A stretch of 64,000 nt of DNA from Candidatus Omnitrophota bacterium (GTDB lineage Bacteria; Omnitrophota; Gorgyraeia; 2-01-FULL-45-10), in assembly GCA_041650935.1 (NCBI GenBank), contig JBAZKH010000001.1, forward strand, positions 219,337 to 283,336. The letters are read 5' to 3'. The notes below the pieces were generated by a model. That model did not search any database, was not told the DNA's origin, and worked only from the letters and a program-made list of their open reading frames with translations. Numbering within the stretch: position 1 is the first letter of the stretch; every line of letters begins with the position of its first letter. The position numbers and the translations under genes were made by a program. Below, piece by piece: positions 6,290-59,888 of this stretch.

Positions 6290-7177
6290 ATGGAGCATTT
6301 GATCGAAGAGTTTCTGAATTATCTTACGGTCGAAAAGGGCCTTAGCAAGAATACGATAGCGGCCTATGGGGCAGACCTTCGCCGTTTTGCCGGCCGTATG
6401 AGTGCCGTAGGGATAAAAGATATCGGCAGGATAAGGCGGCAGGACGTGATGAGCTACCTTCTTTATCTTAAAGATAAAGGGATAGGCAGTAATTCGATAT
6501 CGCGCGCTCTGGTAGCCATAAAGATGTTCTACAGGTTCCTTGTGCAGGAGCACCTTGCGAAAGAGGATGTCTCGGGCGTGATAGAGTCCCCGAGACTTAT
6601 AAGGGGCCTGCCGGATGTCCTTAATATCGATGAAGTCGATAAACTGCTCGGCATGCCGGACTTAAAAGACAATGTGGGGATACGGGACAGGGCTGTGCTC
6701 GAACTTATGTATGCCTCGGGAATGAGGGTTTCGGAGATAGTCGATATCCCTAAAGAAGGCGTTAATCTCGATGTGGGTTTTGTAAAGTGCAGGGGCAAGG
6801 GCGACAAAGAGCGGATCGTACCCATAGGCAGGAAGGCTAAAGAGGCTATAGCGCGATATCTGGAGAAGGTCAGGCCTGCGATGCTTAAAGGTAAAGAGGA
6901 CCCGCACCTCTTCATTTCGCGGCTCGGCAGGAAGATATCGCGCCAGTCTTTCTGGAAGATGATAAAACGGTACACGAAACTCGCGCGGATAAAGAAAGAG
7001 ATTACGCCGCATACCCTCAGGCACAGTTTTGCGACGCACCTTCTGGAGAAGGGCGCGGATTTGAGGGTCGTGCAGGAGATGCTGGGCCATTCCGATATCG
7101 CGACGACGCAGATCTATACGCACGTCGATAAGACGCGGTTAAAATTAATACACAAACAATTCCATCCGCGGGCGTAA
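6290..7177 (+). CDS. xerD: tyrosine recombinase XerD (XerC/XerD family)
   Basis: Catalytic region HTLRHSFATHLLEKGADLRVVQEMLGHSDIATTQIYTHV and a C-terminal ...HPRA, as in E. coli XerD. Confidence 0.85.
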   Translation: MEHLIEEFLNYLTVEKGLSKNTIAAYGADLRRFAGRMSAVGIKDIGRIRRQDVMSYLLYLKDKGIGSNSISRALVAIKMFYRFLVQEHLAKEDVSGVIESPRLIRGLPDVLNIDEVDKLLGMPDLKDNVGIRDRAVLELMYASGMRVSEIVDIPKEGVNLDVGFVKCRGKGDKERIVPIGRKAKEAIARYLEKVRPAMLKGKEDPHLFISRLGRKISRQSFWKMIKRYTKLARIKKEITPHTLRHSFATHLLEKGADLRVVQEMLGHSDIATTQIYTHVDKTRLKLIHKQFHPRA

Positions 7178-7220: not shown

Positions 7221-7475
7221 GAGGGGAAAATTTTTCGATGCAACATAGGAATGTGTTGTGTCAATGTGGCTCGCTTAGGACGCGAAATTTTCAGCCATGT
7301 GAAAATTTCGCTCGGTAAAATTTCTCGTACGCTGCCTCGAAATTTTAACGCCTTAGCTCACCACATCGCCACATCACATTCTCGCATATCGGAAAATTTA
7401 ACTGAAGAAACAGTAAACGCCGCTTTAACGCGGCCACAAAAAGTTCCCGCCATCTGAGGAACGAAAAATTTCACC
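7221..7475. repeat. MITE-like palindromic element, copy L (~255 bp; terminal inverted repeats gaggggaaaatttttcga / cgaaaaatttcacc)
   Basis: Internally self-complementary, e.g. ggaatgtgttgtgtcaatgtgg vs ccacatcgccacatcacattc and gcgaaattttcagccatgtgaaaatttcgc. Copy R is its reverse complement over ~170 nt. Carries periodic A4T3-5 tracts. Confidence 0.7.
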
Positions 7476-7507
7476 GATTGTTTACATCAAGGCGGAGTAA
7501 AAATACA

Positions 7508-8254
7508 ATGATGACTGATAACCAAAAACGAGAATTAACGGAAGAATACATTCTAGCCGCCTCTGATGTAAGAAAGTTAATTTCAGAAACAGCAACGTTC
7601 TGTCAGTCATTAAAACACGCTAAAGCTATCGATCATTGCAGGCATGGACTAACGAGAAGAATGTTTTTATTAACAAGATGCTTAGAGCAGTTCCTTAATA
7701 TTTCTCCTCCGCAAAGAACTGAGCATTTGAAAATGGAGGAGAAGTATGATTTAGATATATTTTTACATGCTTTTCTTATGAATATAAGTGGTGGAATTAA
7801 TAATTTGGCTTGGATTTTGTTTTATGAGAAGGGCGTGTGTGAAAAAGAAGATGAAAAGAGGTTTAAAAGAAATATAAATTTGTTTAATAAAGAATTTCAA
7901 CGATATTCGAACGAAACAATTATAAAAAAATGCGATGACTATAAAGATTGGCACAAGAATTTGACAAATTTTCGAGATCCGATAGCTCATCGTATTCCGC
8001 CTTATATTATCCCTTCCATAATGAATGATGCTGAAACAGAAAAACATCGAAAGTTATGGAATGACTTTTTCAAGACCAAAGATTTAGACAAGAGAAACAT
8101 TATTTTGAACGATATGGATAAAATAGGTGTTTATGAACCAACATATACACATTCTTATGTGGAAAAAAGTGATATAATATTTTTCCATCCGCGGAATATT
8201 TCAGATATCAAAATATTTAAAGATATCGTTGAAACAGTAATAAATAATTTTTAA
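7508..8254 (+). CDS. AT-rich hypothetical protein; possible HEPN/abortive-infection-like (Rx4H motif)
   Basis: ~248 aa. Much lower GC than its neighbours. Contains FRDPIAHR (R-x4-H, a HEPN-type motif). RBS GGAG precedes the ATG at 7508; the track start at 7478 is TTG. Tightly bracketed by the two MITE-like copies. Confidence 0.6.
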   Translation: MMTDNQKRELTEEYILAASDVRKLISETATFCQSLKHAKAIDHCRHGLTRRMFLLTRCLEQFLNISPPQRTEHLKMEEKYDLDIFLHAFLMNISGGINNLAWILFYEKGVCEKEDEKRFKRNINLFNKEFQRYSNETIIKKCDDYKDWHKNLTNFRDPIAHRIPPYIIPSIMNDAETEKHRKLWNDFFKTKDLDKRNIILNDMDKIGVYEPTYTHSYVEKSDIIFFHPRNISDIKIFKDIVETVINNF

Positions 8255-8292
8255 ATACCACCTTGGATTTTAGCGGGCATTAGTACTAGTTT

Positions 8293-8525
8293 GAGGGGGA
8301 AAATTTTTCGAGTCTAGTAGTAAGAATGTGATGTGGCGATCGTAGTTGGAAACCGAGGCGTTTGTGCCGAGCAGGGCCTTAAAAGTTCGAGGCAGCGTAC
8401 GAGAACTTTTACGGAGCGAATTTTTTGCATGGTCAAAAAATTCGCGTCCCGCGAGGTACAACGCCGATGGTTTCCGCGAACTACTCGACACAGCACATTC
8501 TTATGGTTTAGCGAAAAATTTTCTG
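8293..8525. repeat. MITE-like palindromic element, copy R (inverted relative to copy L)
   Basis: Starts gagggggaaaatttttcga and ends cgaaaaattttc. Shares agaatgtgatgtggcgat, cgaggcagcgtacgagaa and gcgaattttttgcatggtcaaaaaattcgc with the reverse complement of copy L. Confidence 0.7.
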
Positions 8526-8535
8526 AAGAGAGCCT

Positions 8536-11148
8536 ATGGACTTAATCACAACACACATTAACGCCGATTTTGACGCCCTGGGATCGCTCGTGGCGGCGAA
8601 GAAGCTCTACCCAGACTCGCGTCTGCTCTTGCCCGGCTCACAGGAGGAGGCCGTGCGCGAGTTCCTCGCGCTCGCCAAGGAGCTCGTTGCCGTCGAAAGC
8701 GAACGGGAGTGCCGGCTCGACGATGTCGACAGGCTCATCCTCGTCGATACGCGCCATGCCTCGCGCATCGGCATCGCCGCGGAGCTCGTCGATAAAGATG
8801 CGGAGGTTCACATATACGACCATCACCCTAGGATGAAGGGCGATATAGTGGCCGACAAAGATGTCTATGAGGAAGTCGGCGCCACAGTCACGATCCTTGC
8901 CGATATAATCAGAAAGAAGAAGATAAAATTATCGTATCTCGAGGCCACCATAATGCTCCTCGGGATTTACGAGGAGACGGGCTCGCTTACCTACCGGGCG
9001 ACGACGCGGCTCGATGTGGACATGGTGAGCTTTCTCCTGTCGCAGGGCGCGAACCTGCCGGCGGTATCGAGCTACCTTAACAGGGAGGTGAGCCAGGAGG
9101 CTCTCCCGCTCCTTACCAGGCTCATTAATTCGACCGAAAGAGTCTCCATAAAAGGCGTTTCCGTATCTATTATCGAAATAGACAGCGAAAGTTACGTGAG
9201 CGATTTCGGGGAGCTCCTCCACAAGCTTATGGATATCGAAAACATCAATGTTCTCTTCGTGTTGATAAGATCGCCGAAGGGCAGGATAGATGTCATAGGA
9301 AGGAGCAGGATACCCGGCGTAGATGTCAATAAGGTATTGGGCCATTTCGGCGGCGGCGGCCATCCGGGCGCCGCCAGCGCGAAGATCCGCGGCAAGGATA
9401 GCGCGTCGATAAGGCGCAAGCTTGTTGATCTCCTGAAGTCCGGCATCAAAGTTGCGGTGTATGCGGAAGACATGATGTCGAAAGACGTCCGGGGCTTGAG
9501 CGTAAACAAAACGATAGACGCAGCAAGGCGGCTCTTCGACAGGCGCCGGATCGACGGCATGCCGGTCGTCAAAGGCGGCAGGATAGTGGGGATAATAACT
9601 TCCGACGGTATAAACAAGGCTATAAAACGCGGTTTTGGGCACTCGAGGCTAAAAGGATATATGTCGCGGCGGATTACTGTCGTCAAGCCGAAGACGCCCC
9701 TGCACCTGATACAGAAGATGATCCTCGAAGAAAATATAGGCGTCCTTCCGGTTGTAAAAGAGAAAAAGGTGTTGGGCATCATACGCCGGACCGATATCTT
9801 AAAGAGTATTCACCGGGGGCTCTTCCTGCGGCCGCATCATGCCGTAAAGAGAGTGACCTTGAATCTTTCGAAGAAGATGGAACTCCTGCTGCCGAAGAAT
9901 ATTATGCGCCTTTTGCGGCATATCGGCAATGCCGCCAAGGCAAAAGGCCATACCTCTTTTATTGTCGGAGGACTGGTCCGCGATCTCATCCTGGGCGCGA
10001 AGAATCTCGACCTGGATATAGTCGTGGAAGGGAAGGCCATCGAACTTGGCAGGGAATTGGCGAAAGAGCTGGGCGCAACGCTTGTCGAACATAGAAGGTT
10101 CGGGACCTGTTCGATAATTACCGGAGAGCGGTTGAAGATAGATCTGGCTGCCGCAAGGAGGGAAGTTTATGAAAGACCGGCGGCGCTGCCTACGGTTGAA
10201 TTCAGTTCATTGAAAGACGATCTTATAAGGAGGGACTTTACCATAAACGCCATGGCGGTCAGCCTGAATAAGGAGAGTTTTGGACAGCTGATAGATTTCT
10301 TCGGAGGAGAGCGCGACCTTGCCAGGGGGGTTATAAAGGTGATGCACGACGAAAGCTTCATCGATGATCCGACGCGCATATTCAGGGCGGTGCGGTTCGA
10401 GCAGAGATTCGGTTTTGCGATAGACGGCCACACGGAGGACCTCATAAAATTTGCTATCAAAAAAGAGATGTTCAAGAAAGTCGAGCCGCAGAGGATACGC
10501 GACGAGGTGGTCCTGATCCTGAAAGAGGAGGACCCGTATAAGGCCATCAGGCGCATGGCCGAGCTAGACGAGCTCAGGTTCCTCCACTCGAAGATAAAAT
10601 TCGATAAGTCCGCCGCGCGGCTGTACGGTGCGGTGAGCATGATTTGTGATTGGTTCGAAGGCTCGACATTCAAAAAACGCGCCGCCGAAAGGTGGCTCAT
10701 CTATCTTATGGCGTTATTCGACCGTTTGAGTTATAATGATGTCTCCTCGATCTGCGGTAAATTCGTATTCAGGCGGTCAGAAAAGATAAGGTTGTTGTCG
10801 GCCAAAGAGAGCGCCGATAAGGTCGTGAGGGTTCTCGGCGCTAAACGGGCTCTGCCGCCCAGCCGTATATTCAAACTTCTGGAACCTCTTTCATTCGAGG
10901 CGATACTATTTATAATGGCAAAAACCGAATCCGGGAAGGTGAGGGGCCGGATCGAAGACTTCTTCCGCAAGTTTAACGGCGCAAGAGTGGCGATAAAGGG
11001 CGAGGACATCAAGAAGATGGGTTTAAAGCCGTGCCCGCAGTATAAAACCATTCTCGATAAAGTTTTGCTGGCCAAACTGGACGGCAAAGTCGGTACACGC
11101 GCACGAGAGCTTGCCTATGCCGCGCGGCTGGTAAAGAAGGTAATGTAA
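8536..11148 (+). CDS. multidomain DHH/DHHA1 phosphoesterase - CBS pair - tRNA nucleotidyltransferase/poly(A) polymerase (CCA-adding enzyme family)
   Basis: N-terminal DHH (DFDALGS, DHH-like motifs, GGGGH of DHHA1), two CBS-like segments, then the NTase head GGLVRDLILGAKNLDLDIVVEG and an RNA-binding tail; 870 aa. Confidence 0.8.
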   Translation: MDLITTHINADFDALGSLVAAKKLYPDSRLLLPGSQEEAVREFLALAKELVAVESERECRLDDVDRLILVDTRHASRIGIAAELVDKDAEVHIYDHHPRMKGDIVADKDVYEEVGATVTILADIIRKKKIKLSYLEATIMLLGIYEETGSLTYRATTRLDVDMVSFLLSQGANLPAVSSYLNREVSQEALPLLTRLINSTERVSIKGVSVSIIEIDSESYVSDFGELLHKLMDIENINVLFVLIRSPKGRIDVIGRSRIPGVDVNKVLGHFGGGGHPGAASAKIRGKDSASIRRKLVDLLKSGIKVAVYAEDMMSKDVRGLSVNKTIDAARRLFDRRRIDGMPVVKGGRIVGIITSDGINKAIKRGFGHSRLKGYMSRRITVVKPKTPLHLIQKMILEENIGVLPVVKEKKVLGIIRRTDILKSIHRGLFLRPHHAVKRVTLNLSKKMELLLPKNIMRLLRHIGNAAKAKGHTSFIVGGLVRDLILGAKNLDLDIVVEGKAIELGRELAKELGATLVEHRRFGTCSIITGERLKIDLAAARREVYERPAALPTVEFSSLKDDLIRRDFTINAMAVSLNKESFGQLIDFFGGERDLARGVIKVMHDESFIDDPTRIFRAVRFEQRFGFAIDGHTEDLIKFAIKKEMFKKVEPQRIRDEVVLILKEEDPYKAIRRMAELDELRFLHSKIKFDKSAARLYGAVSMICDWFEGSTFKKRAAERWLIYLMALFDRLSYNDVSSICGKFVFRRSEKIRLLSAKESADKVVRVLGAKRALPPSRIFKLLEPLSFEAILFIMAKTESGKVRGRIEDFFRKFNGARVAIKGEDIKKMGLKPCPQYKTILDKVLLAKLDGKVGTRARELAYAARLVKKVM

Positions 11149-11592: not shown

Positions 11593-12523
11593 GTACGACA
11601 AATTCCTGATTACCGCCCACGTTAATCTCGAAGGCGATTCTTTAGGAAGCCAGCTTGGCATGAAGGCGCTTCTCGATAGCCTTGGCAAGAAATCGATCAT
11701 AGTCGACAACGATCCCGTGCCGGATCATTATAAATTTTTACCGAAGGCCGACGAGGTATCGAGCGACCTGGCCCTTACGCGGGATTTTGACGCGGCGGTT
11801 ATCCTTGACTGCCCGACCATGAAGAGGATAGGCAAGGTGCGTGACCTTATTACGAAGGATAAATTTATCATAAATGTCGACCACCACATCTCCAATGAAA
11901 AATTCGGCGGTGTCAACTGGGTCGACCCCAACGCCAGTTCGGCCGGGGAGATGGTCTATAAGATATATAAAGAGATGGGGATAAAATTGACCAAAGAGAC
12001 CGCGCTCGTCCTGTATATCGCCATACTTACCGATACGGGCTCGTTCAATTATGACAACACCTCGAGCGTTACTCACGAGATAGCGGGAGAACTGCTCGGC
12101 TACGGCATCGATCCTGCGCGCGTCTCCGAAAGCGTCTATGAAAGGCGCTCCGTTGCGGACATAAAATTATTGAGCCGTGTCCTATCCACGATCAGGGTGA
12201 ATAAGACGGGCGACGTGGCATATCTGGAGATAACTAAGAAAATGCTCAAGGAGACCGGCGCCGATCTCGTCAAATCGGAAGGTTTCGTCAACTACGCGCG
12301 ATCGATCGATAAAGCGAGAGTTGCGGTGATATTCAAAGAGGATGCAGGCGACAAAGTGAACGTGAGTTTCCGGTCCAAAGGCGATGTGGACGTTAATAAA
12401 ATAGCGTCGTTCTTCAACGGCGGCGGCCACGTAAAGGCCTCCGGATGCATCGTCGAGGGGAGCCTGCCCGACGTTGAGAAAAAAGTCCTTGATAGGATCG
12501 AAGAGGCCTTGCGCGGGAAGTAA
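11564..12523 (+). CDS. nrnA: DHH-family bifunctional oligoribonuclease / pAp phosphatase NrnA
   Basis: DHH motifs (ITAHVNLEGDSLGS, DHH) and DHHA1 GGGH; its position in the rbfA-truB block is typical. Confidence 0.8.
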   Translation: MKQVIEAINRYDKFLITAHVNLEGDSLGSQLGMKALLDSLGKKSIIVDNDPVPDHYKFLPKADEVSSDLALTRDFDAAVILDCPTMKRIGKVRDLITKDKFIINVDHHISNEKFGGVNWVDPNASSAGEMVYKIYKEMGIKLTKETALVLYIAILTDTGSFNYDNTSSVTHEIAGELLGYGIDPARVSESVYERRSVADIKLLSRVLSTIRVNKTGDVAYLEITKKMLKETGADLVKSEGFVNYARSIDKARVAVIFKEDAGDKVNVSFRSKGDVDVNKIASFFNGGGHVKASGCIVEGSLPDVEKKVLDRIEEALRGK

Positions 12524-12555
12524 ATTTCGCTTATTTCCGCCGGATAGCCGCGCTG

Positions 12556-12590
12556 TTTCCACCCCGGGGTGGAAATGTGATGTGGCGAAC
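12556..12590. repeat. 20-nt perfect palindrome tttccaccccggggtggaaa plus adjacent box tgtgatgtggcgaac (degenerate relative of the MITE-like element)
   Basis: The palindrome core ttccaccccggggtggaa recurs in-frame at 49395 and 50727. gtgatgtggcga recurs in both MITE copies. Downstream cgaaaaaatccgaac (12619) resembles the MITE terminal repeat. Confidence 0.55.
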
Positions 12591-12636
12591 CACAGAGACA
12601 CATCGCATTAGACCGAATAACGAAAAAATCCGAACT

Positions 12637-52186: not shown

Positions 52187-52225
52187 ATTTTCTTGCCGGG
52201 TGAAAATTTCACCCGGCAAGAAAAT
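52187..52225 (+). terminator. 39-nt perfect palindrome immediately after the giant ORF stop (attttcttgccgggtgaaaatttcacccggcaagaaaat); likely bidirectional terminator
   Basis: Core cttgccgggtga...tcacccggcaag is identical to the leader palindrome at 23144-23167; convergent with thpR on the - strand. Confidence 0.6.
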
Positions 52226-58563: not shown

Positions 58564-59784
58564 ATGAAATTAGTCAAGGTTGGAAGCAAGAGTTTTAACA
58601 AACTTTGCGAACGTAATTCCGGCCGCAATAAACGCGTTACGGAGAGCGTGCGCAAGATCCTCGAGAACGTAAAAGTCAGCGGTGACGAGGCGCTCATAAA
58701 TTATACGAAGAAGTTCGACAATGTAAAACTCTCCGCCAAAGACCTTAGAGTGTCGGCATGCGAAACCTCCGGCGCTTATCAGGACATAAAGCCGGAATTT
58801 GTCTCGACGCTTAAGGTTGTCCTGGAGAACGTCCAGAAATTTTACAAAAAACAACTTAAGAAATCCTGGAAGATAAAAGATGCTGACGGCGTGCTTTTGG
58901 GTGAGCAGATAACACCGCTCGAGCGTGTCGGTGTCTATGTGCCGAGCGGGACGGTGCCATTAGTCTCCAGCGTCTACATGACCGTGATACCGGCGAAGAT
59001 GGCGGGGGTGAAGAAGATAGTGCTTATGACGCCGCCGAACGAGTACAAGTCCGTAGATCCGCATATCCTTGTAGTCGCCGATCTTCTCAAAGTTGACGAG
59101 ATCTATAAGGTGGGCGGCGCCCAGGCGATAGGGGCGCTTGCCTTCGGTACCCGAAGCGTGCCTAAGGTCGATAAGATAGTCGGGCCGGGCAATGCCTACG
59201 TTACCGAGGCGAAGAGGCAGGTCTTCGGTTACTGCGATATCGATATGCTTGCGGGTCCGACGGAGGTTGTGATAATCGCGAACCAGCAGTCGAATATAAA
59301 TTTCATTAAGGCGGATCTCGAGGCCCAGGCCGAGCATTTTATGGGGCTCTCGATACTTATAACAAATTCAAAGCGGCTGGCGCGTATACTCAAGAAGGAG
59401 AATATCCGCGGTTATGTGATCTTGGTCAAAAATATGGACGAGGCGGCCGATGTTGCTAACAGCCTGGCGGCGGAGCACCTGCAGATATTGATCAATAATC
59501 CCAAGAAGGTCGCCAAGAGGATATCCAATGCCGGCGCGATATTCTTAGGGCCGTACACGCCGGTCGCTGTCGGCGATTATGTCGCGGGCCCCAGCCACGT
59601 ATTACCGACGGGTGGAAGCGCGCGCTTCTTCTCGGGCCTCGGCGTATCCGATTTCTACAAGAGTTCGCATATAATTTCGTATACAAGGAAAGCGCTCGAG
59701 AAGGTGCGCGAACCTTTGGAGAAGGTGGCGGGGATAGAGAGGCTTACCAAGCACTTAGACTCAGTGAAGGTAAGGTTTGAATAA
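58564..59784 (+). CDS. hisD: histidinol dehydrogenase
   Basis: GPGNAYVTEAKRQVFG, CDIDMLAGPTEV, HD Zn-binding motifs; ATG with an AGGGAG RBS preferred over the TTG at 58537. Confidence 0.9.
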   Translation: MKLVKVGSKSFNKLCERNSGRNKRVTESVRKILENVKVSGDEALINYTKKFDNVKLSAKDLRVSACETSGAYQDIKPEFVSTLKVVLENVQKFYKKQLKKSWKIKDADGVLLGEQITPLERVGVYVPSGTVPLVSSVYMTVIPAKMAGVKKIVLMTPPNEYKSVDPHILVVADLLKVDEIYKVGGAQAIGALAFGTRSVPKVDKIVGPGNAYVTEAKRQVFGYCDIDMLAGPTEVVIIANQQSNINFIKADLEAQAEHFMGLSILITNSKRLARILKKENIRGYVILVKNMDEAADVANSLAAEHLQILINNPKKVAKRISNAGAIFLGPYTPVAVGDYVAGPSHVLPTGGSARFFSGLGVSDFYKSSHIISYTRKALEKVREPLEKVAGIERLTKHLDSVKVRFE

Positions 59785-59888
59785 ATTCGAAATACGAATA
59801 TCTAAATTCTAAACAAATACGAATTTTGATTAGAATTTGTTTAGGATTTCGGATTTAGAATTTCGAAATTACATCGGGAGAATACGAT
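59785..59888. promoter_or_regulatory. 104-nt AT-rich imperfect palindromic spacer between hisD and hisB, bounded by AAATTCGAAAT / AATTTCGAAATT
   Basis: The left half (aaattcgaaatacgaatatctaaattctaaacaaat) is roughly reverse-complementary to the right half (atttgtttaggatttcggatttagaatttcgaaatt). Confidence 0.45.

What the first reader, a model, noticed from the sequence alone, without database searches (positions are those of the whole stretch)
7221..8525. AT-rich HEPN-motif gene bracketed by two inverted ~250-bp palindromic MITE-like elements, immediately downstream of xerD
The cargo gene (7508-8254) has a much lower GC than the flanks, and it contains FRDPIAHR (Rx4H), the catalytic signature of HEPN RNases used by abortive-infection and toxin systems. 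It is tightly bounded by element L (7221-7475) and element R (8293-8525). Each element has terminal inverted repeats (ggggaaaatttttcga ... cgaaaaattt(t)c) and is internally self-complementary. R is the reverse complement of L over ~170 nt (shared strings agaatgtgatgtggcgat, cgaggcagcgtacgagaa, gcgaa(a)tttt...aaaa(t)ttcgc). The whole resembles a small composite mobile cassette or a defence islet captured between repeats.
Basis: partly seen in the sequence, partly recalled or inferred. Interest (0 to 1): 0.75.

Follow-up and report, generated by a model that had tools for sequence, protein, structure and literature searches.

The report
Dispersed palindromic repeats bracket imported gene
An AT-rich, horizontally acquired gene of unknown function (probably a HEPN-like RNase) lies between two copies of a structured palindromic repeat family, apparently undescribed, that is scattered through the intergenic regions of one group of uncultured Omnitrophota bacteria. 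The repeats are real and multi-copy, but there is no evidence that the three parts move together as a transposon.

Summary
ORF 7508-8254 has about 30% GC against about 50% in the flanks. It lies between two self-complementary elements, L (7223-7400) and R (8296-8523), which are inverted copies of each other.

- **The repeats.** They belong to a dispersed repeat family confined to Candidatus Omnitrophota. One fragmented MAG has at least 15 copies, and I counted 97 copies or fragments across the fetched loci. The family has several mosaic subtypes, shared termini (T)AAAATTTTTCG...CGAAAAATTTT(A) and a conserved three-way-junction fold with strong covariation. Copies sit mostly next to housekeeping genes, often fused to a stop codon.
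- **The cargo.** It belongs to a large uncharacterised family (1606 clusters) with an invariant R-x4-H motif positioned as in HEPN RNases. Similarity to HEPN profiles is only sub-threshold, and fold searches found nothing.
- **The insertion.** Related genomes have xerD followed by 65-81 nt and then the DHH gene, so L-cargo-R is an insertion. A sister species carries cargo+R at 96-97% identity (flanks 75-88%) but a different left element. There is no target-site duplication.

Verdict: a new MITE/REPIN-like repeat family flanking a laterally exchanged orphan HEPN-like gene. A composite transposon is not shown, and the position next to xerD is incidental.

The parts
6290..7177 (+). xerD, the housekeeping tyrosine recombinase (left neighbour, not part of the element)
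   Evidence: TIGR02225 recomb_XerD scores 376.9 bits against a cutoff of 329.6. The ligA-hyp-MBL-xerD synteny is conserved in nine related contigs.
7223..7400 (-). Element L: a complete type A copy of the Omnitrophota palindromic repeat. Its reference ('R-sense') strand is the minus strand.
   Evidence: It aligns over its full length with 28 other type A copies from other loci. The fold is -95.8 kcal/mol on the - strand and -84.3 on the + strand. Termini are GAAAATTTTTCGAT / ATCGGAAAATTT (I23).
7414..7472 (-). Remnant (right terminal arm) of a type C repeat.
   Evidence: 88% BLAST match to the type C consensus. It is collinear with the complete 230-nt type C copy at the same position in the sister MAG, L001 4732-4961.
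7435..8530 (.). Tract shared at about 96% identity with MAG STD1_81 (GCA_029004355.1): C remnant + cargo + R. This is the laterally exchanged unit.
   Evidence: Identity is 0.93-1.00 per 60-nt window here. It is 0.72-0.93 in xerD and the DHH gene, and the sequences are not alignable left of 7414.
7508..8254 (+). Cargo gene: 248 aa, about 31% GC, stand-alone member of a large uncharacterised all-alpha family
   Evidence: ORF and RBS. 13 word-indexed homologues. 1606 representative clusters at E<=1e-3. AF2 model with pLDDT 92.2, all helical. No curated family.
7973..7990 (+). Codons R156-D-P-I-A-H161, the invariant R-x4-H motif
   Evidence: R156 and H161 are invariant in 14 and in 65 homologues. 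R156 is the last residue of helix 146-156 and H161 lies in the following loop. That matches the HEPN description in PMC3710099.
8296..8523 (+). Element R: a mosaic copy (type A outer stem, type B-like inner stem, common core). Its reference strand is the plus strand, and it ends 12 nt before the DHH start codon.
   Evidence: Fold of -104.8 kcal/mol, z = -8.7. 97% identical to L001 5791-6016. Other copies of this subtype are L061 (93%), L078 and L090 (86%).
8536..11148 (+). DHH-DHHA1-CBS-PolyA_pol fusion gene (right neighbour, not part of the element)
   Evidence: Pfam domains. It directly follows xerD after 65 nt in L045 and after 81 nt in L108.
12522..12630 (+). Third, core-less miniature type A copy in the window, between the nrnA-like gene and truB. 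The TAA stop codon is fused to its terminus.
   Evidence: 3-mismatch match to the type A arm at 12572-12589. Sequence read. The same intergenic site holds full copies in L045, L044 and L026.

Best explanation
**The repeats (shown).** L and R are two copies of a non-coding, structure-conserved palindromic repeat family of the MITE/REPIN kind. The family populates intergenic regions of one clade of Candidatus Omnitrophota.

**The cargo.** It is shown that the gene between them is foreign DNA: about 31% GC and absent from the same site in relatives. It is inferred that the gene encodes a stand-alone HEPN-like RNase. By analogy with single-gene Abi/toxin HEPN proteins, it would act as a defence or addiction effector through the invariant R156/H161 pair.

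**The arrangement (inferred).** The cargo occupies the middle of a head-to-head repeat doublet in the xerD-DHH spacer. In this clade, adjacent copies of the family are always head-to-head, whatever lies between them.

**The transfer.** It is shown that the block C-remnant + cargo + R was exchanged between two species-level lineages recently. It is inferred that the route was homologous recombination, using the repeat arms and/or the flanking conserved genes as homology. Transposition of L-cargo-R as a composite unit is the less likely route. In the window's lineage the left arm was later remodelled: type A replaced most of type C.

**xerD.** It plays no part.
For: **Repeat family**
- Reference-genome scan: 37 hits, 26 of them in Omnitrophota MAGs, 15 in STD1_81.
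- Metagenome scan: 57 hits, up to 5 on one contig.
- BLAST census over all fetched loci: 97 copies or fragments.
- 100 ORFs next to copies are mostly housekeeping genes, with no transposase among the recurrent families.

**Structure under selection**
- 30 type A copies give 55 pairs, 97% of cells paired.
- 22 pairs carry compensatory changes, against 8.9 in shuffles (0/500 reach it) and 1-7 when the partners are slid.
- The loops GAGGCAGCGTACGA and CATGG are near-invariant.

**Orientation rules**
- The type A 3' end faces a stop codon 27 times and a start codon 5 times, with TAA fused to the terminus in about 20 copies.
- 11 of 11 adjacent pairs are head-to-head with unrelated spacers. The prior for that class is 1/4 per pair.

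**Insertion**
- xerD to DHH is 65 nt in L045 and 81 nt in L108, with no cargo and no repeat.

**Recent exchange**
- 7435-8530 is about 96% identical to STD1_81, against 75-88% for the flanking genes. The left element differs.

**Other bracketed genes**
- Other genes bracketed by two copies are also low in GC: L095 -0.133, L070 -0.08/-0.11, L022 -0.07, L089 -0.06. The 90 genes with a copy on one side only average +0.008 +/- 0.035.

**HEPN-like reading**
- R156 and H161 are invariant, D157 follows R, and the motif lies at a helix end plus loop.
- The only recurrent weak Pfam hits among 65 members are HEPN_Swt1 (3 members) and HEPN_Apea (2).
- The consensus core hits HEPN_Cthe2314 at E = 0.004.
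- Single members hit CARF_HEPN and Csx1 in PADLOC.
- Homologues lie in accessory regions of conjugative plasmids, one of them 700 nt from an annotated Abi gene.
Against: - Every HEPN profile hit is below its curated cutoff.
- No cognate antitoxin or partner gene is present, and nothing shows RNase activity.
- Mobility of the repeats is inferred from copy number and distribution. No clean filled/empty pair with a target-site duplication was found.
- TA flanks both ends in 18 of 30 type A copies, but in neither window copy on both sides.
- No autonomous element with the same termini was found.
- The repeat copy number in the window's own 710-kb contig is unknown. There are only three copies in 64 kb, two of them around the cargo.
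- Homologous recombination as the route of exchange is inferred from an identity gradient, which gene-specific constraint could also produce.
- Low-GC genes might simply attract A/T-targeting repeats.
Confidence: 0.55

Rival explanations
1. Composite transposon. The two inverted repeats act as the ends of one unit, and a transposase supplied in trans moves L-cargo-R together, as in TIME-COMPs or integron mobilisation units.
For: - The outer termini are intact and inverted: GAAAATTTTTCG at 7226 and CGAAAAATTTTC at 8523.
- The whole block is an insertion relative to L045 and L108.
- Four independent low-GC units lie between head-to-head copies: window/L001, L070, L089 and L095.
- There is precedent for MITE-bounded composites (PMC13367494, PMC3575428).
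Against: - No direct repeat flanks the block. The flanks read ...CCGAGGG| and |TGAAGAG.
- In the only other carrier the left element is a different subtype, while cargo+R are 96-97% identical. The conserved unit is therefore not L-cargo-R.
- The cargo is found at one locus only. The next homologue is 49% identical and has no such repeats.
- No transposase with matching ends was found.
Confidence: 0.15
2. REP/REPIN-type system. The repeats are single-strand hairpin substrates of a Y1 (HUH) RAYT-like transposase encoded once per genome. The head-to-head doublet is the replicating unit, and the cargo is a passenger between the two halves.
For: - The repeats are extragenic, palindromic and structure-conserved, with conserved mismatches (tandem G.A) and conserved loops.
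- Adjacent copies are obligately in inverted doublet orientation.
- Y1 transposase genes occur in relatives at the very same xerD-downstream site. L107 has PF01797. L109 has a 174-aa protein with YYVT...MPNHLHGII.
- The REPIN concept is described in PMC3116915 and PMC3337134.
Against: - The units are 170-230 nt, not 20-40 nt.
- The Y1 genes seen are flanked by other short motifs (GTAG-type hairpins, GGGGACAG), not by these repeats.
- In L107 the IS interrupts a type A copy rather than being bounded by one.
- The symmetric TA-flanked termini look more like a DDE cut-and-paste element.
- G-U and A-C mismatch counts (22 vs 16) show no strand bias.
Confidence: 0.15
3. The elements are primarily functional structured RNAs, or DNA cruciforms: 3'-UTR stabilisers, terminators, insulators or protein-binding sites. 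They would be kept at gene boundaries by selection, and their spread would be secondary. R would then be a 5' leader of the DHH gene and L a 3' element of xerD.
For: - Covariation is strong and loop sequences are invariant.
- There is an orientation bias relative to neighbouring genes, 27 vs 5.
- R ends 12 nt before a start codon, and several type B/R copies do the same.
- The same intergenic sites are occupied in several genomes.
Against: - The orthologous junctions work without any element in L045, L108 and L046.
- Different subtypes and orientations occupy the same site in different genomes.
- There is no U-tract after the stem, and the consensus scans find no terminator on the + strand and only one chance-level promoter-like site.
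- No Rfam family matches.
- Many copies lie at contig ends, which is typical of repeats.
Confidence: 0.1
4. The cargo protein is itself the enzyme that mobilises the repeats, so L-cargo-R is an autonomous element, in the way a RAYT gene is flanked by its REPs.
For: - A gene flanked by inverted copies of a dispersed repeat is the classic signature of an autonomous element.
- The family has invariant R, H and D residues.
- One member gave a weak OrfB_IS605 hit at E = 0.07.
Against: - The repeats occur in at least 8 named Omnitrophota MAGs plus further metagenome contigs, whereas close cargo homologues exist in only two genomes.
- Other family members (L002-L006 and plasmid copies) have no flanking repeats.
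- The left repeat is not conserved with the gene.
- There is no transposase-like fold or motif.
Confidence: 0.03
5. Xer-dependent integration: an IMEX-like or pdif-module-like cassette recombined by the adjacent XerD.
For: The block lies immediately downstream of xerD. That site is a hot spot for insertions in at least six related genomes.
Against: - XerD is the chromosomal equivalog in conserved synteny.
- The repeats and other insertions occur just as readily at unrelated sites, for example nrnA-truB, and next to about 100 unrelated genes.
- A 28-bp dif-like site was not looked for.
- Xer acts in trans, so gene adjacency carries no mechanistic weight.
Confidence: 0.02

Closest known systems
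Correia repeat-enclosed elements (CREE/NEMIS) of Neisseria, and similar bacterial MITEs (ERIC, RUP)
   Same: - They are non-coding and 100-200 nt long, with terminal inverted repeats and a conserved core.
- Many intergenic copies lie close to or fused with gene ends.
- They are TA-flanked and fold as long hairpins when transcribed (PMC2649163, PMC2229807). Here, TA lies at both ends in 18 of 30 copies.
- Copies sit beside housekeeping genes.
   Different: - The fold is a three-way junction with two invariant loops, rather than a simple hairpin.
- The family has mosaic, nested subtypes (A, B, C, R).
- Neighbouring copies follow a strict head-to-head rule.
- No cognate transposase, IHF site or promoter has been shown.
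- The host is a different phylum (Omnitrophota).
REPINs / BIMEs with RAYT transposases
   Same: - They are extragenic palindromic repeats whose functional unit is an inverted doublet, and they form mosaics of unit types in alternating orientation. They persist at gene boundaries (PMC3116915, PMC3337134).
- Y1 transposase genes are present in the clade.
   Different: - The units are 5-10 times longer.
- The termini are symmetric and A/T-rich.
- The Y1 genes seen are not flanked by these repeats.
- Doublet spacers are unrelated and range from 0 to about 130 nt, or hold whole genes.
MITE-bounded composite units (TIME-COMPs, integron mobilisation units)
   Same: Two copies of a non-autonomous element in inverted orientation enclose a passenger gene (PMC13367494, PMC3575428).
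   Different: - There is no target-site duplication.
- The flanking copies belong to different subtypes.
- The left copy is not conserved with the passenger in the sister genome.
- There is no second insertion site and no known transposase.
HEPN superfamily RNases (stand-alone Abi/toxin types; Pfam HEPN_Swt1, HEPN_Apea, HEPN_Cthe2314)
   Same: - The protein is all-alpha.
- It has an invariant R-x4-H with an acidic or polar residue after R, at the end of a helix and the start of the next loop (PMC3710099).
- It is a solitary gene in accessory DNA.
   Different: - No profile reaches its threshold.
- No HEPN structure is retrieved by fold search.
- The protein is about twice the size of a minimal HEPN domain and has further invariant residues (G47, R51, G95, W148, D233).
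- There is no MNT or antitoxin partner.

Membership tests
MITE (non-autonomous transposable element) | Multiple dispersed copies in a genome | tested here: met
   15 copies on 14 contigs of MAG STD1_81. 5 copies on one 830-kb contig. 97 copies or fragments over the fetched loci.
MITE (non-autonomous transposable element) | Terminal inverted repeats and no coding capacity | tested here: met
   (T)AAAATTTTTCG ... CGAAAAATTTT(A) in all subtypes, extended by about 17-nt subterminal arms in type A. The elements are 170-240 nt with no conserved ORF.
MITE (non-autonomous transposable element) | Target-site duplication shown by comparing filled and empty sites | tested here: inconclusive
   TA flanks both ends in 18/30 type A copies, one end in 6 and neither end in 6. 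TA cannot be told apart from the terminal palindrome. The empty sites available (L045, L108, L046) are too diverged to define junctions.
MITE (non-autonomous transposable element) | Cognate autonomous element with the same ends | tested here: not met
   No transposase family is recurrent among 100 element-adjacent ORFs. The Y1_Tnp genes found have other ends. Only sampled loci were tested, not whole genomes.
REPIN/RAYT system | Inverted doublets as the predominant arrangement of neighbouring units | tested here: met
   11/11 adjacent pairs are head-to-head. The core-pattern strands in L050 and L042 confirm this.
REPIN/RAYT system | A RAYT (Y1 transposase) gene flanked by the repeats | tested here: not met
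   In L107 the Y1_Tnp element interrupts a type A copy. The L109 HUH protein is flanked by GTAG-type small hairpins.
Composite transposon bounded by two MITEs | Duplicated target flanking the whole unit | tested here: not met
   The flanks are CCGAGGG|...|TGAAGAG.
Composite transposon bounded by two MITEs | The same unit (both ends plus cargo) at two or more different sites or genomes | tested here: not met
   There is only one other carrier. It has the cargo at the same site, and its left end is a different subtype.
HEPN superfamily | Conserved R-x4-6-H with a polar residue after R | tested here: met
   R156 and H161 are invariant in 65 sequences. Position 157 is D in the window protein and in the family consensus.
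HEPN superfamily | Motif at the end of core helix 3 and the start of the following loop, in an all-alpha fold | tested here: met
   In the AF2 model (pLDDT 92) helix 146-156 ends at R156 and residues 157-173 are non-helical. The criterion comes from PMC3710099. This is a prediction, not a solved structure.
HEPN superfamily | Significant sequence-profile or fold similarity to a known HEPN family | tested here: inconclusive
HEPN superfamily | Metal-independent RNase activity that depends on R and H | not testable with these tools
   Needs biochemistry.
Integron gene cassette | Integron integrase, and attC sites in one orientation downstream of each cassette | tested here: not met
   The neighbour is the XerD equivalog. 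It scores 156.5 bits on integrase_gron against a cutoff of 265. The flanking elements are inverted relative to each other and 170-230 nt long.
Any Rfam RNA family | Covariance-model match | tested here: not met
   No match at E<=1 other than two chance-level hits inside the ORF. None in related loci.

The most novel reading that the evidence does not exclude
Head-to-head doublets of these structured repeats act as a gene-capture and gene-exchange device. The two arms serve as portable homology, or as recognition sites for an unidentified enzyme. Foreign low-GC genes are inserted between them and swapped between Omnitrophota lineages. This would be a cassette system that works without an integron integrase. 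Separately, the cargo family (more than 1600 clusters) would be a new stand-alone HEPN-type defence nuclease.
Probability: 0.15. Interest if true: 0.7.

Novelty: new member of a known kind. Interest (0 to 1): 0.45.

Why it matters
Omnitrophota are uncultured, often ultra-small bacteria, and little is known about their mobile DNA. This locus exposes three things.

- **A repeat family.** It is abundant and strongly structure-constrained, with mosaic subtypes, stop-codon-fused insertions and a strict head-to-head pairing rule. It is useful for assembly and annotation, because the repeats break contigs and create false ORFs and false miRNA-like hits.
- **A recurrent association with imported genes.** The repeats repeatedly bracket low-GC genes. 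That makes the idea of repeat-mediated gene exchange in a compact genome directly testable.
- **A protein family.** It is large, has no annotation and carries a HEPN-like catalytic signature. It also occurs on rhizobial conjugative plasmids, which makes it a reasonable candidate for a new single-gene defence or toxin module.

None of this is unprecedented in kind.

Tried and rejected
**Searches on the cargo protein**
- Pfam, PADLOC and NCBIfam gave nothing.
- PDB sequence-profile searches gave only chance hits.
- Foldseek against the PDB and BFVD gave nothing with E<0.03.
- afdb50 was unavailable.

**Searches on the repeats**
- Rfam on the region and on related loci found no family. A MIR9563 hit in L107 is probably a chance match, possibly to a palindromic copy.
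- I looked for the same repeats around distant cargo homologues (L002-L006) and found none.
- I looked for a transposase next to the repeats and found none recurrent.
- G-U and A-C counts gave no strand asymmetry, so RNA-level and DNA-level selection cannot be told apart.

**Readings I rejected**
- Integron/attC and Xer/IMEX readings (and the distribution of copies).
- The cargo as the mobilising enzyme (distribution mismatch).
- A promoter-like site at 7481-7509 overlaps the start codon and occurs at chance frequency, so I did not use it.

**What I could not do**
- I tried to define a target-site duplication from filled and empty sites (xerD-DHH and nrnA-truB). The genomes are too diverged.
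- The window's own genome is in neither scanned collection, so its genome-wide copy number stays unknown.
Full report

Yes.
- GC drops to 0.29-0.36 between 7500 and 8300, against about 0.5 on both sides.
- ORF 7508-8254 (248 aa, GGAG 8 nt upstream of the ATG) contains FRDPIAHR at residues 155-162.
- On its right, 8296-8523 has perfect 12-nt inverted termini (GAAAATTTTTCG/CGAAAAATTTTC). It folds into a long stem closed on a three-way junction with two hairpins (-104.8 kcal/mol, z = -8.7).
- On its left, 7223-7400 is the reverse complement of that element. The matching arms are 75, 37 and 18 nt at 85, 84 and 100%, and two blocks of about 22 nt are present only in R.
- A 20-mer shared by both occurs nowhere else in the 64 kb, and 0 occurrences are expected by chance.
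- Between L and R both inner hairpins differ by compensated changes (AAAATTTC/GAAATTTT vs AAAAGTTC/GAACTTTT; GCGAAATTTTCA/TGAAAATTTCGC vs GCGAATTTTTTG/CAAAAAATTCGC).
- One correction.

**2. What are the flanking elements?**

I scanned one genome per species (GTDB) for a degenerate core pattern, GGACGC-N20-32-GCTCSGTAAAANTTC.
- The scan returned 37 stretches. 26 are in Candidatus Omnitrophota MAGs and the rest are at the level I expected by chance.
- One fragmented MAG (STD1_81, GCA_029004355.1) has 15 copies on 14 contigs, many at contig ends.
- The metagenome collection gave 57 more stretches, including 5 copies on one 830-kb contig.

A BLAST census of everything fetched found 97 copies or fragments. 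They fall into mosaic subtypes.
- Type A is about 175 nt with an outer stem AATGTGATGTGGCGA/TCGACACAGCACATT. This is the window's L.
- Type B has a different outer stem.
- Type C is about 235 nt.
- The 'R' type has a type A outer stem around a type B-like stem. One copy has type A nested inside type B (L027).
- All share the termini (T)AAAATTTTTCG...CGAAAAATTTT(A) and a core of two hairpins.

An alignment of 30 type A copies supports a 55-pair structure.
- 97% of cells are paired.
- 22 pairs carry compensatory double changes, against 8.9 +/- 1.6 in column shuffles (0/500 reach it) and 1-7 when the partners are slid.
- The hairpin loops (GAGGCAGCGTACGA, CATGG) and a tandem G.A/A.G in one helix are conserved.
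- G-U and A-C exceptions are equally frequent (22 vs 16). I therefore cannot say whether RNA or single-stranded/cruciform DNA is the selected form.
- No Rfam family matches.

**3. Where do the copies sit?**

- Of 100 ORFs within 450 nt of a copy, most are ordinary housekeeping genes: ribosomal protein S2, fmt, hypF, priA, truB, ABC transporters. No transposase family recurs.
- Type A and C copies have a marked polarity. The end I' (on the more stable strand) abuts the stop codon of a gene on the opposite strand 27 times and faces a start codon 5 times (type A). In about 20 copies the TAA stop is fused to the terminal TAAAATTTTT.
- Type B and R copies often end 0-32 nt before a start codon, as R does 12 nt before the DHH gene.
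- TA lies outside both termini in 18 of 30 type A copies. This fits a TA target duplication but does not prove one. Insertion into the TA of a stop codon would regenerate TAA, which would explain the fusions.
- Neighbouring copies are always head-to-head: 11 of 11 adjacent pairs, with spacers of 0 to about 130 nt that are unrelated between loci.
- A third, core-less miniature copy is in the window at 12522-12630.

**4. What is the cargo?**

- No curated library recognises it.
- A word-indexed search found 13 relatives. One is 96% identical in STD1_81 and the next is 49%.
- An exhaustive profile search found 1606 representative clusters, 532 of them below 1e-30. Nearly all are single-domain proteins of 250-270 aa.
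- In 65 diverse members G47, R51, G95, W148, R156, H161 and D233 are invariant.
- AlphaFold2 gives a confident all-helical model (pLDDT 92.2). Helix 146-156 ends at R156 and H161 lies in the following loop.
[quoted passage not shown] Here that residue is D157.
- Among the 65 members, the only Pfam families hit more than once below threshold, apart from MTR4-like_stalk (2 members), are HEPN_Swt1 (3 members, best E = 0.0021) and HEPN_Apea (2, best 0.0056).
- The consensus of the core region hits HEPN_Cthe2314 (E = 0.0041, 17.6 bits against a cutoff of 27.1).
- Single members touch CARF_HEPN and Csx1 models in PADLOC.
- Family members on alphaproteobacterial conjugative plasmids are solitary 'hypothetical proteins' in accessory regions beside IS elements, integrases and ligD. 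In one case the gene is 700 nt from an annotated abortive-infection gene.
- No partner gene exists in the window.
- I rate 'HEPN-like RNase, stand-alone toxin/defence effector' at about 0.6. The motif and its placement are shown. The fold assignment and the activity are inferred.

**5. Is L-cargo-R an insertion, and did it move as a unit?**

- XerD is the housekeeping equivalog. It lies in a conserved ligA-hyp-MBL-xerD block in nine related contigs.
- In L045 and L108 the DHH-CBS-PolyA_pol gene follows xerD after 65 and 81 nt, with no repeat and no cargo. The 1358-nt spacer in the window is therefore an insertion.
- The same site is a hot spot in relatives:
  - a nested B/A repeat in L027;
  - a type B repeat plus another non-coding module in L110;
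  - half a type A copy interrupted by a low-GC IS carrying a Y1 transposase in L107;
  - a mini-A remnant plus a RAYT-like HUH protein in L109.
- The only other genome with the cargo (STD1_81) has it at the same site. Positions 7435-8530 (C remnant, cargo, R) are about 96% identical, while xerD and the DHH gene are 72-93% per window and ligA and MBL about 75-78%.
- Left of 7414 the two genomes are unrelated. STD1_81 has a complete type C copy fused to xerD's TAA. The window has a type A copy plus only the last arm of type C.
- I conclude that the block was exchanged laterally after the two lineages split. Homologous recombination at a shared locus is the simplest route. The left arm was remodelled later.

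**6. A pattern that keeps the cassette idea alive**

- In the fetched loci, genes bracketed on both sides by repeats are low in GC relative to their locus: window -0.195, L095 (a lyase) -0.133, L070 (ClpP-like plus a membrane protein) -0.08/-0.11, L022 -0.07, L089 (TPR) -0.06.
- The 90 genes with a repeat on one side only average +0.008 +/- 0.035.
- The four strongest cases are all between head-to-head copies, the same orientation as the empty doublets.
- In the window the orientation of L fits xerD's stop and that of R fits the DHH start, not the cargo's own ends. That is what one would expect if the cargo entered a pre-existing doublet.
- Three explanations remain untested: the doublet arms serve as homology for exchange, an enzyme recognises them, or A/T-rich foreign DNA simply attracts A/T-targeting repeats.

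**7. Comparison with known systems and verdict**

- The repeats work like bacterial MITEs of the Correia/ERIC kind and like REPIN/BIME doublets. They meet the copy-number, inverted-repeat, non-coding and doublet criteria. They lack a demonstrated target duplication and a cognate transposase.
- The bracketed arrangement resembles TIME-COMPs and integron mobilisation units but fails their defining tests.
- The cargo resembles stand-alone HEPN toxins but does not reach any family threshold.
- A full-text search found no paper mentioning Omnitrophota together with miniature inverted-repeat elements.
- I therefore classify the finding as new members of known kinds: a new repeat family and a new HEPN-like family. 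The 'composite mobile cassette' and any role for xerD are not supported. The finding is moderately interesting, mainly for the repeat family's unusual regularities and its association with imported genes.

Noticed in passing
window 12522-12630: A core-less miniature type A repeat lies between the nrnA-like DHH/DHHA1 gene and truB, with the gene's TAA stop fused to the repeat terminus. The same intergenic site holds full copies in L045, L044 and L026 and is empty in L046.
   Followed up: partly
L008, L016, L049/L087, L050, L051, L066, L078, L084, L085, L097, L012: Adjacent repeat copies are head-to-head in 11 of 11 cases, whatever the orientation of the neighbouring genes. Their spacers are unrelated. 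No mechanism is known for this rule.
   Followed up: partly
L110 4572-4921; L050 5339-5681 and 3291-3549; L072 279-610; L061 1558-1888; L100 5986-6320; L079 12654-12984; L045 10062-10316: A second conserved non-coding module of about 250-340 nt (80-92% identical between loci). It is always attached to the same end of a palindromic repeat and points away from it. It has predicted long-range closing helices and no Rfam match. It is absent from the window.
   Followed up: partly
L107 4467-5200; L109 4389-5120: At the xerD-downstream site of two relatives there are Y1 (IS200/RAYT-like) transposase genes. In L107 the low-GC IS interrupts a type A repeat inside its hairpin loop. In L109 the gene is accompanied by GTAG-type small hairpins and GGGGACAG motifs.
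   Followed up: partly
L095 5782-7041; L070 703-2147; L089 980-1831; L022 5912-6412: Other genes bracketed by two repeat copies are also low in GC. They are a Lyase_1 enzyme, a ClpP-like protein plus a membrane protein, a TPR protein and an unknown 166-aa protein. The association with imported DNA is therefore not specific to defence genes.
   Followed up: partly
L104 (Bradyrhizobium pBs28S5b), L105 (S. fredii pSF83666d), L106 (pTiS4): Homologues of the cargo lie on conjugative alphaproteobacterial plasmids, annotated as hypothetical. An NHEJ ligase gene (ligD) is adjacent or within 2 kb in two of the three contexts.
   Followed up: no
window 8536-11148 vs L046 5894-6640, L107 5216-5851, L109 5121-5822: The gene downstream of xerD is an ~870-aa DHH-DHHA1-CBS-PolyA_pol fusion in some relatives and a 210-250-aa PolyA_pol-only protein in others.
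   Followed up: no
window 59782-59871 and 52187-52225: An AT-rich imperfect palindrome with 43-nt arms, and a perfect 19-bp hairpin. Neither is related to the repeat family.
   Followed up: no
window 7481-7509: A sigma-70-like site (TTTACA-17-TACAAT) overlaps the cargo's start codon. Such sites occur at chance frequency in this region.
   Followed up: no
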